From the IMG/VR virus record IMGVR_UViG_2541047126_000011: a stretch of 6,062 bases of DNA. One strand, 5' to 3'. The stretch is from a virus (Duplodnaviria; Heunggongvirae; Uroviricota; Caudoviricetes). The stretch's first letter is position 1. Each line of letters begins with the position of its first letter. Positions 553 to 777 of this stretch are shown here, piece after piece. The position numbers were made by a program, and so were the translations under genes. The notes below the pieces were generated by a model. The model was not told where the DNA came from. It worked only from the letters and a program-made list of their open reading frames with translations, and ran no database searches.

Positions 553-777
553 ATGAAGAAATTATTGGTAACCGTAAAGCCTTTTCAGGGAACAATTCCG
601 TTCCGTATTTTGCAGCGTGGTCGTGTTCTTGTTGAAGGTTCGTTCAGTGGTAAATGTACGCAATTACACTCCAGGACCTTTCAGGTGAATGCCACGAATG
701 AAGAGCTAACCGTTGAGTGTACGATGAATGCCGCTAAATGCCGCATGGTATCCGCTGCATTACAGCCAGTGTGTTGA
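553..777 (+). CDS. hypothetical small basic protein (74 aa, 4 Cys), orphan ORF between the spanin genes and cos
   Basis: ATG at 553 preceded by GGAGA at 544..548. The track ORF 535..777 begins at an in-frame TTG, but the ATG with an RBS is the better start. About 45% GC by my own count, visibly more AT-rich than the flanking genes. No signal peptide, lipobox or TM segment; no similarity to a protein I recognise. Confidence 0.5.
   Translation: MKKLLVTVKPFQGTIPFRILQRGRVLVEGSFSGKCTQLHSRTFQVNATNEELTVECTMNAAKCRMVSAALQPVC

What the first reader, a model, noticed from the sequence alone, without database searches (positions are those of the whole stretch)
553..777. AT-rich orphan ORF encoding a 74-aa basic four-cysteine protein, between the spanin genes and cos
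The ORF has its own RBS (GGAGA, ATG 553) and is about 45% GC by my count, clearly lower than the surrounding lysis and packaging genes. It sits at the end of the late region just upstream of cos, a typical place for horizontally acquired cargo genes in lambdoid phages. The product (MKKLLVTVKPFQGTIPFRILQRGRVLVEGSFSGKCTQLHSRTFQVNATNEELTVECTMNAAKCRMVSAALQPVC) has no signal peptide or TM segment, net positive charge, Cys at 35, 56, 63 and 74, and does not resemble Bor or any protein I recognise. Its function is open; a role in host interaction or superinfection exclusion would be pure speculation.
Basis: partly seen in the sequence, partly recalled or inferred. Interest (0 to 1): 0.5.

Follow-up and report, generated by a model that had tools for sequence, protein, structure and literature searches.

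The report
Small prophage cargo gene after Rz
This is a real, conserved but uncharacterised 74-amino-acid accessory gene that lambdoid prophages of E. coli and Salmonella carry just behind their lysis genes; it is optional cargo of unknown function and is already annotated as a hypothetical protein in over a thousand genomes.

Summary
The ORF at 553-777 (+) exists as described: GGAGA ribosome-binding site, 45% GC against 54% for the window, 74 aa, no signal peptide or membrane segment. It is not an orphan. It is identical to RefSeq WP_000735655.1 (EDL933_1735), occurs in 1181 of 5426 complete E. coli genomes and belongs to PHROG 2571 (unknown function). Distant relatives occur in Salmonella, Providencia, Citrobacter and Scandinavium prophages. 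It is under purifying selection (dN/dS 0.23-0.58), intact in all 87 copies examined, and predicted with high confidence (pLDDT 90) to be a six-stranded beta-sandwich with no significant structural or Pfam relative. "Four-cysteine" and "basic" are lineage-specific: only C35 and C56 are conserved among close relatives, and none in distant ones. A 263-bp cassette (530-792) holding only this gene is cleanly absent from the same type of Rz-to-terminase junction in VT1-Sakai and 1738 genomes. Distant homologues sit in other phage slots. The cargo interpretation is therefore supported. No promoter or terminator of its own was found, so it is probably read from the Q-dependent late transcript. Function remains unknown; my best guess is a small binding protein used in phage-host conflict. 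Ordinary; modest interest.

The parts
544..548 (+). Shine-Dalgarno sequence GGAGA, 4 nt upstream of the ATG
   Evidence: Read directly from the sequence. A GGAG-type motif at the same distance is conserved in post-Rz orthologues.
553..777 (+). Coding sequence of the 74-aa protein (identical to WP_000735655.1 / EDL933_1735), PHROG 2571 short form, predicted six-stranded beta-sandwich
   Evidence: ORF. PHROG 2571 E 2.8e-28. 66 homologue clusters. dN/dS 0.23-0.58. No internal stop in 87 copies of 25 alleles. AlphaFold2 pLDDT 90.1, pTM 0.76. RefSeq annotation. EDL933_1735.
530..792 (+). Presence/absence cassette: the stretch present here but replaced by about 9 nt in VT1-Sakai and Stx2_12E129, whose Rz stop is followed almost directly by the sequence that starts at window 793
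   Evidence: BLAST boundaries (hits H5 and H6), annotation, alignment A4, empty junction in 1738 genomes. GC 0.437.
721..750 (+). Hypervariable segment of the protein (residues 57-66, including the short predicted helix at 60-63), with substitutions and a 5-residue deletion in relatives
   Evidence: Alignment A1. Secondary structure H60-63 and lower pLDDT in this block.
62..529 (+). Context: i-spanin Rz with embedded o-spanin Rz1 (282-488). The ORF follows 23 nt after its stop and is co-oriented.
   Evidence: PF03245 E 1.5e-39 and PF06085 E 6.9e-21. Rz is adjacent in about 80 of 94 informative contexts.

Best explanation
The ORF is a genuine protein-coding accessory gene of lambdoid prophages. 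It is the short, stand-alone form of PHROG family 2571, attached to the 3' end of the lysis cassette. SHOWN: it is conserved as coding, it is optional (natural presence/absence at the same type of junction), it is compositionally foreign, and it is linked to Rz but independent of the packaging module. Distant relatives sit in other cargo slots: directly behind a tR'-like terminator between Q and the holin gene, inside a tail-gene cluster, and in an early region. The product is predicted with high confidence to be a soluble, single-domain, six-stranded beta-sandwich of about 8 kDa without export signals. INFERRED: no promoter-like or terminator-like site of its own was found. It lies 23 nt behind Rz here, and overlaps the Rz stop by 4 nt in some relatives. 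It is therefore most likely transcribed only as part of the Q-antiterminated late (pR') transcript, which runs through the lysis genes into the head genes, and translated from its own Shine-Dalgarno sequence. It would thus be made in the cytoplasm late in lytic growth, not in the lysogen. It cannot be needed for lysis or packaging. MOST LIKELY MODE OF ACTION (low confidence): a small binding module that sequesters or blocks a host or competitor macromolecule late in infection, for example counter-defence. The conserved strands would form the scaffold, the Q21-x-G23 and G33-K34 turns a conserved surface, and the hypervariable 57-66 segment the part that tracks a variable target.
For: Coding and conserved: 66 homologue clusters, mostly 74 aa. 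Alignments A1 and A2 have 17-23 invariant positions. Nei-Gojobori dN/dS is 0.23-0.58 at dS 0.3-0.8, with third-position excess. All 87 full-length copies (25 alleles) are open. Fold: pLDDT 90.1, pTM 0.76, strands 2-8, 11-21, 24-35, 39-45, 52-55 and 66-71. The same topology is predicted at pLDDT 90.3 for a member about 32% identical. An independent PredictProtein result gives 62% strand, 0% helix and 'cytoplasm' (PMC4765031 Additional file 1). Optional cargo: cassette absent in VT1-Sakai and Stx2_12E129; empty junction in 1738 genomes against ORF in 1181; GC 0.453 against 0.55-0.57. Linked to Rz, not to packaging: Rz adjacent in about 80 of 94 informative contexts, with four unrelated small-terminase types downstream. 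Mobility between slots. Late transcription: no sigma-70-like promoter on the + strand and no terminator after the ORF in 1-1400. A 4-nt overlap with Rz occurs in L089 and L090. Strong hairpin plus T-run terminators lie directly upstream of the Q-holin-slot homologues. Conflict-related neighbourhood: an Acb2/Tad1-hairpin gene (PF24729, E 3.1e-16) lies immediately downstream in L107 and L111. The slot also holds TonB_C, KilA-N, lipoprotein and DUF4406 cargo.
Confidence: 0.55

Rival explanations
1. It is an accessory component or regulator of the lysis cassette, for example modulating spanin, endolysin or holin action or lysis timing, and is made in step with Rz by translational coupling.
For: It lies directly after Rz in about 80 of 94 informative contexts. 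It overlaps the Rz stop by 4 nt in L089 and L090. It is co-oriented with Rz and has no promoter of its own. The 280-aa long form of the family is also found just after Rz.
Against: The same type of Rz-to-terminase junction lacks it in 1738 genomes and in functional Stx phages such as VT1-Sakai. It has no membrane segment, signal peptide or lipobox, so it cannot reach the periplasm where spanins and endolysin act. Distant homologues lie far from lysis genes, in a tail cluster and an early region, or upstream of the holin.
Confidence: 0.12
2. It is one half of a mobile two-gene module with the acidic PHROG 4280 protein (for example a toxin-antitoxin-like, exclusion or abortive-infection pair), and the window carries a solo remnant.
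For: A 68-73-aa PHROG 4280 gene (pI 4.7-5.4) follows the homologue in four lineages at three different phage positions: L084, L086, L100 and L102. In L102 the pair travelled with a fragment of its former neighbour DUF6246.
Against: The partner is absent from the window and from most lineages (only about 7 of 109 contexts), yet the solo gene stays under purifying selection. There are no PADLOC or Pfam toxin-antitoxin hits for either protein. The charge of the ORF74 protein is not conserved.
Confidence: 0.12
3. It is a lysis-released extracellular factor: a lectin-like beta-sandwich made in bulk late in infection and freed by phage lysis, as Shiga toxin is, acting on other cells or on cell debris.
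For: Distant homologues occupy the slot directly behind a tR'-like terminator downstream of Q, the position that stx occupies in Stx phages by established knowledge. The best fold matches include carbohydrate-binding modules and the lectins LecB and RS-IIL.
Confidence: 0.08
4. It is a decaying fragment of the 280-aa PHROG 2571 protein with no function of its own.
For: The ORF matches only positions 100-172 of the 291-position PHROG 2571 profile, while the 280-aa P0075 matches it end to end. The dN/dS of 1.26 for one close pair fits relaxed constraint.
Against: The short form has its own conserved start codon and RBS and forms a complete, confidently predicted domain. It is kept at 72-82 aa in several genera, shows dN/dS well below 1 over longer distances and has no disrupted copy among 87.
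Confidence: 0.05

Closest known systems
PHROG 2571 (phage protein family of unknown function)
   Same: Significant full-length match of the 74-aa protein (E 2.8e-28). Distant stand-alone members and the 280-aa P0075 hit the same profile. The long form also lies in the Rz-to-terminase slot.
   Different: The window protein covers only the central domain (profile positions 100-172 of 291). It lacks the N-terminal coiled-coil-like region and the roughly 110-aa C-terminal region of the long form. The family carries no functional annotation.
Lambda bor and other cargo genes in the Rz-to-cos interval of lambdoid phages
   Same: Same genomic slot, small size, optional, lower GC than neighbours (established knowledge for bor; for this gene).
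   Different: By established knowledge, Bor is a lipoprotein with a signal peptide, encoded on the opposite strand and expressed from the prophage. This protein is co-oriented with the late genes, has no export signal, no detected promoter and no sequence similarity to any Pfam family, including Bor.
stx and other cargo placed directly downstream of tR' in the Q-dependent late operon
   Same: The distant homologues in Salmonella diarizonae and Providencia prophages sit directly behind a strong terminator between Q and the holin gene. They should therefore be Q-dependent late genes.
   Different: The window copy is at the other end of the lysis cassette. There is no sequence or structural similarity to Shiga toxin subunits, and no signal peptide.
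FNIII-A domain of tip attachment protein J (Pfam PF24801; lambda gpJ structures 8iyk and 9e7m)
   Different: Profile-profile comparison gives 1-2% probability, and all Pfam scores are below the gathering threshold. The similarity is no better than to many unrelated beta-sandwiches (hemocyanin, PNGase F, carbohydrate-binding modules). Homology is not supported.
Acb2/Tad1-type phage anti-defence sponges
   Same: Small soluble phage accessory proteins. A gene with the Acb2/Tad1 hairpin domain lies immediately downstream of a family member in L107 and L111.
   Different: There is no sequence similarity. ORF74 is predicted all-beta, whereas the neighbour matches a Pfam domain named a hairpin. The link is adjacency in one lineage only.

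Membership tests
PHROG 2571 | Significant match to the family profile HMM | tested here: met
   E 2.8e-28, 99.9 bits, residues 1-73 against profile 100-172 of 291. Distant members P0101 and P0085 and the long form P0075 hit the same profile.
PHROG 2571 | Full-length architecture of the profile (about 280-290 aa: N-terminal region, central beta domain, C-terminal region) | tested here: not met
   Only the central domain is present. P0075 covers profile positions 1-291. The window protein is the short, stand-alone form.
Moron in the strict sense (autonomous cargo gene unit in a phage genome) | Present in some and absent from other, otherwise similar, phage genomes at the same site | tested here: met
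   Cassette 530-792 is absent in VT1-Sakai and Stx2_12E129. Empty junction in 1738 genomes, ORF in 1181.
Moron in the strict sense (autonomous cargo gene unit in a phage genome) | Nucleotide composition different from flanking genes | tested here: met
   GC 0.453 (cassette 0.437) against Rz 0.551, terminase 0.574 and window 0.541.
Moron in the strict sense (autonomous cargo gene unit in a phage genome) | Own promoter upstream and terminator downstream | tested here: not met
   No + strand promoter-like site and no terminator after the ORF in 1-1400. Only 23 nt separate the Rz stop from the ATG. This is a consensus scan only, so a weak promoter is not excluded.
Moron in the strict sense (autonomous cargo gene unit in a phage genome) | Expression from the repressed prophage | not testable with these tools
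   No expression data were found for EDL933_1735 or WP_000735655.1.
Cys4 zinc-binding or disulfide-rich small protein | Four conserved cysteines | tested here: not met
   Only C35 is invariant and C56 at least 90% conserved among close homologues; C63 and C74 are subgroup-specific. C35 is replaced by A, T, V, I or L in most distant members. C56Y and C74S alleles exist.
Lambda Bor / lipoprotein cargo | Signal peptide with lipobox; match to the Bor family | tested here: not met
   No Pfam hit at E up to 1. The hydrophobic stretch after MKK is only 5 residues and the highest hydropathy is 0.8. Residues 2-8 are predicted to be a beta-strand of the domain.
Tip attachment protein J FNIII-A domain (PF24801) | Pfam score above the gathering threshold, or significant profile-profile match | tested here: not met
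   No hit for the window protein. Best E among family members is 0.02. hhalign probability is 0.3-1.6%.
Known anti-phage defence or toxin-antitoxin proteins (PADLOC-DB) | Match to a defence-system protein model | tested here: not met
   No PADLOC hit at E up to 1 for the ORF, the long form, two distant members or the PHROG 4280 partner.
Spanin or other lysis-cassette component | Membrane anchor or lipoprotein signal, and constant presence with the lysis genes | tested here: not met
   No membrane segment or signal peptide. Absent from many Rz-to-terminase junctions. Homologues occur away from lysis genes.

The most novel reading that the evidence does not exclude
PHROG 2571 short-form proteins would be a new class of small beta-sandwich effectors of temperate enterobacterial phages. 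They would be made from the Q-dependent late transcript and neutralise a host immune sensor or a competing phage late in infection. They would spread as a minimal RBS-plus-gene cassette, sometimes paired with PHROG 4280, between the cargo slots of the late operon. The hypervariable 57-66 segment, and the excess of amino-acid changes between close alleles, would reflect an arms race with the target.
Probability: 0.15. Interest if true: 0.6.

Novelty: new member of a known kind. Interest (0 to 1): 0.3.

Why it matters
The gene sits in roughly one in five complete E. coli genomes, often in several copies, and in many Shiga-toxin prophages of O157:H7 and other pathogenic E. coli. Even so, nothing is known about what it does. 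This work shows it is a real, selected, optional late-operon gene with a confidently predicted fold and a recurring partner gene. That makes it a well-defined, cheap target for a knockout or interaction study. If it does act in counter-defence or phage competition, it would add a late-expressed example to a field dominated by early genes. If not, it is one more conserved hypothetical phage gene, now with cleaner boundaries and context.

Tried and rejected
1. Known families: Pfam, NCBIfam, PADLOC and PDB sequence searches gave no hits.

2. Rfam scan of 1-1400: nothing, so there is no evidence of an RNA element instead of a gene.

5. Tail-tip fusion: P0078 (225 aa) seemed to fuse the domain to a weakly Phage_Tail_Tip-like region. 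In L111 the same two parts are separate overlapping genes, and the N-terminal part is PHROG 11851 of unknown function. Rejected.

6. Repeat-protein hits in the deep search (cystatin repeats, HYR_4C repeats, P0100): judged to be score inflation from summing many weak repeats.

7. Direct repeats flanking the cassette, seen by eye in alignment A4: not significant, since 32% of shuffles score as well.

8. The 225-bp 'phage' novel gene X041 and the 222-bp X024 of Neuhaus et al. 2016: different proteins. EDL933_1735 is only a length-matched annotated control in that paper. The Sakai Ribo-seq supplements do not contain the sequence.

9. Representative-genome scan: no confirmed locus.

10. Viral-collection scans with distant members P0101 and P0085 found nothing.

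11. Lambda cosN motif: chance level.

Full report
**1. The observation**

The window reads as the junction between the lysis and packaging modules of a lambdoid prophage.
- Rz lies at 62-529 (PF03245, E 1.5e-39), with Rz1 embedded at 282-488 (PF06085).
- The ORF in question lies at 553-777.
- A 461-nt non-coding stretch follows.
- Next come a DUF1441-type small terminase (1239-1715), a gpA-type large terminase (1712-3835), a small W-position gene (3808-4044) and the portal gene (4044-5546).

- GGAGA lies 4 nt before the ATG.
- GC is 0.453 (GC3 0.44), against 0.551 for Rz, 0.574 for the large terminase and 0.541 overall.
- The protein has 74 residues, with Cys at 35, 56, 63 and 74, and pI 9.7.
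- No stretch is hydrophobic enough for a signal peptide or membrane segment.

An open frame of this length is not in itself unusual, because the window has 51 ORFs of 40 codons or more. The case for a gene must rest on other evidence. The lambda cosN sequence is not present above chance, so 'cos' is inferred only from gene order.

**2. It is a real gene**

- The protein has 66 homologue clusters in the large protein database, most of them exactly 74 aa, from E. coli and Salmonella.
- The DNA is found in 1181 of 5426 complete E. coli genomes, with up to six copies per genome. It is always annotated 'hypothetical protein'. In RefSeq it is WP_000735655.1.
- For orthologues from seven lineages, pairwise Nei-Gojobori dN/dS is 0.23-0.58 at dS 0.3-0.8, with the expected excess of third-position changes.
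- Among 87 full-length copies representing 25 alleles, none has an internal stop.
- The start codon and a GGAG-type Shine-Dalgarno sequence are conserved.
- AlphaFold2 on a 23-sequence alignment gives pLDDT 90.1 and pTM 0.76 for an almost all-beta domain, with strands 2-8, 11-21, 24-35, 39-45, 52-55 and 66-71 and a short helix at 60-63.
- A member only about 32% identical gives the same topology at pLDDT 90.3, with an extra hairpin after strand 1.
- The exact protein appears as EDL933_1735 in Additional file 1 of Neuhaus et al. 2016 (PMC4765031). There, PredictProtein gives 0% helix, 62% strand, 38% coil and 'cytoplasm'. It is listed only as a length-matched annotated control, without expression data.
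- Rfam finds no RNA family in 1-1400.

**3. It is neither an orphan nor a four-cysteine protein**

PHROGs places it in family 2571, of unknown function (E 2.8e-28), but it matches only profile positions 100-172 of 291. The reason is that the family also contains a 280-aa long form (P0075), which matches end to end and has the ORF74-like unit as its central domain.

An exhaustive profile search of 1.8 billion representatives found 47 hits. Three were repeat proteins whose scores come from summing weak repeats, and I set those aside. What remains is a family of 72-82-aa proteins with the pattern MKKLxVT...F.V.Q.G..L.ED..SGK...Y.V.A.D..L.VEH. They come from Salmonella, Providencia, Citrobacter and Scandinavium prophages and from metagenomic phages.

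- Among close relatives, only C35 is invariant and C56 near-invariant. C63 and C74 are confined to the window's subgroup, and many relatives instead have a Cys at position 38.
- Most distant members lack even C35.
- C56Y and C74S alleles occur naturally.
- Positive charge is not conserved either: a Salmonella orthologue has pI 5.7.
- The segment at residues 57-66 is hypervariable and has a 5-residue deletion in some lineages.

**4. It is optional cargo linked to Rz**

In VT1-Sakai and Stx2_12E129, which carry the same DUF1441/gpA packaging module as the window, the Rz stop is followed after about 9 nt by the sequence that begins at window 793. A 263-bp cassette (530-792), holding nothing but the RBS and this ORF, is therefore present or absent. 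The empty junction occurs in 1738 of 5426 E. coli genomes.

A census of 109 non-identical contexts gave the following.

| Feature | Result |
|---|---|
| Rz within 60 nt upstream | about 80 contexts |
| Rz further away | 10 contexts |
| Rz not detected | 4 contexts |
| Small terminase, Terminase_2 type | about 31 |
| Small terminase, Phage_Nu1 type | about 30 |
| Small terminase, DUF1441 type | about 16 |
| Small terminase, Terminase_4 type | 2 |

In some phages the ORF overlaps the Rz stop by 4 nt.

**5. Relatives move between phage cargo slots**

- In a Salmonella diarizonae prophage and a Providencia prophage, the homologue lies between the antiterminator Q gene and the holin gene. It sits directly behind a strong hairpin plus T-run terminator (dG -18.2 and -15.1 kcal/mol). 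This is the tR' position, the slot stx occupies in Stx phages (established knowledge).
- In a metagenomic siphophage it lies inside the tail cluster, between a DUF6246 gene and the tape-measure gene.
- In Scandinavium it lies in an early region after ydaS/ydaT-like genes, still next to a fragment of DUF6246. This indicates that it was moved together with a piece of its former neighbour.
- The long form P0075 and the P0069-type short form lie between the lysis genes and the small terminase gene.
- In four lineages, at three different positions, the homologue is followed by a conserved acidic 68-73-aa gene of PHROG 4280, also of unknown function. The window has no trace of this gene.
- In L107 and L111 the next gene encodes an Acb2/Tad1-hairpin protein (PF24729, E 3.1e-16), a known anti-defence domain.

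**6. How it most likely works**

Shown: the gene is selected, optional, compositionally foreign, cytoplasmic by prediction, and a single small beta-sandwich domain.

Inferred: no promoter-like site on the + strand and no terminator after the ORF were found. The gene follows Rz by 23 nt. In lambdoid phages the Q-antiterminated pR' transcript runs through the lysis genes and on into the head genes (established knowledge). The gene is therefore most likely expressed only late in lytic growth. The terminator-proximal position of the distant homologues points the same way.

The gene is missing from functional phages, so it is not needed for lysis or packaging. The remaining reading is that of a small binding protein acting on a host or competitor molecule. 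The conserved turns (Q21-x-G23, G33-K34) would form a constant surface and residues 57-66 a variable one. I rate the gene-and-cargo part at about 0.9 and the specific binder or counter-defence role at no more than 0.3. The stated overall confidence of 0.55 reflects the combination.

**7. Rival explanations**

- Lysis regulator: disfavoured by the natural absences, the lack of any export signal and the homologues far from lysis genes.
- Two-gene module with PHROG 4280: possible for some lineages. However, the solo gene is the commoner state and is still constrained.
- Lysis-released lectin-like factor: rests only on weak fold resemblance and slot analogy.
- Decaying fragment of the long form: contradicted by the conserved start, the complete domain and the selection.

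**8. Comparison with known families**

As a moron in the strict sense, the gene meets the presence/absence and composition criteria but not the criterion of its own promoter and terminator.

**9. Verdict**

The gene is, however, an ordinary and already annotated hypothetical phage gene, not an orphan, and its two headline features (four cysteines, basic charge) are lineage-specific. No literature on its function was found. Interest is modest at 0.3. It rests on how widespread the gene is in pathogenic E. coli prophages, the confident fold without close relatives, the recurring PHROG 4280 partner, and one close allele pair with dN/dS 1.26.

Noticed in passing
L084 4265-4471; L086 4182-4397; L100 5294-5512; L102 5384-5605: A conserved acidic 68-73-aa gene (PHROG 4280, unknown function, motif GWVLGW.VVR..PWHLVGVYAT) lies directly downstream of the ORF74 homologue in four lineages at three different phage positions. 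The two genes appear to move as a pair. The window has no trace of it.
   Followed up: partly
L111 3238-3600; L107 863-1147: A gene with the Acb2/Tad1 hairpin domain (PF24729, E 3.1e-16; anti-CBASS/anti-Thoeris sponge family) lies immediately downstream of an ORF74-family gene. The cluster is a pre-terminase cargo cluster that also holds a DUF4406-like gene, two small lipoprotein genes and a PHROG 11851 gene.
   Followed up: partly
L096 about 4955-4985; L098 about 5065-5095: Strong intrinsic terminators (9-11-bp GC-rich stem plus T-run, dG -18.2 and -15.1 kcal/mol) end about 15-20 nt before the start of the distant homologues in the Q-to-holin interval. That is the tR' position, so these homologues are the first gene of the Q-dependent late operon.
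   Followed up: partly
window 553-777 versus L089 4001-4225 (E. coli O55:H7 CB9615) and L091: The two close alleles differ at 20 nucleotides, giving 14 amino-acid changes with only 2 differences at third codon positions (dN/dS 1.26). This contrasts with 0.23-0.58 for all more distant pairs. It could be diversifying selection or relaxed constraint; the numbers are small.
   Followed up: partly
window 778-1238: The lambda cosN 12-mer is not present above chance, so cos is not located. The non-coding stretch has a G-rich block near 1010-1055, an A+T-rich part (GC 0.36 around 1101-1300) with inverted repeats at 1082-1103/1121-1142 and 1110-1120/1124-1134, and a perfect 11-nt inverted repeat at 879-889/995-1005.
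   Followed up: no
L086 about 3925-3985; L094 about 3925-3985: A degenerate copy of about 60 nt of the 3' end of Rz lies immediately upstream of the ORF, although in L086 Rz itself ends about 440 nt away and in L094 no intact Rz was called. This suggests the cassette was moved or separated together with the end of Rz.
   Followed up: partly
L108 5630-6843; L109 5629-6843; L110 451-1665: The 280-aa long form of PHROG 2571 (P0075) has a coiled-coil-like N-terminus, a central ORF74-like domain and a C-terminal region of about 110 aa. It sits after Rz in two different phages, each time preceded by a DUF4406 gene and followed by a 149-aa gene with no Pfam hit. A DUF4406-like gene is also present in L111.
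   Followed up: partly
L089 4557-4898 and related loci: The same Rz-to-terminase slot in other E. coli prophages also carries a 108-113-aa TonB_C-domain protein with a lipoprotein-like N-terminus, a YnfO/DUF3950 gene on the opposite strand and an HNH endonuclease gene. The slot is a cargo hot spot.
   Followed up: no
window 3808-4044 and 1712-3835: The small gene in the W position (78 aa, no Pfam scan done) overlaps the 3' end of the large terminase gene by 28 nt. The small and large terminase genes overlap by 4 nt. This is ordinary tight packing of the packaging operon.
   Followed up: no
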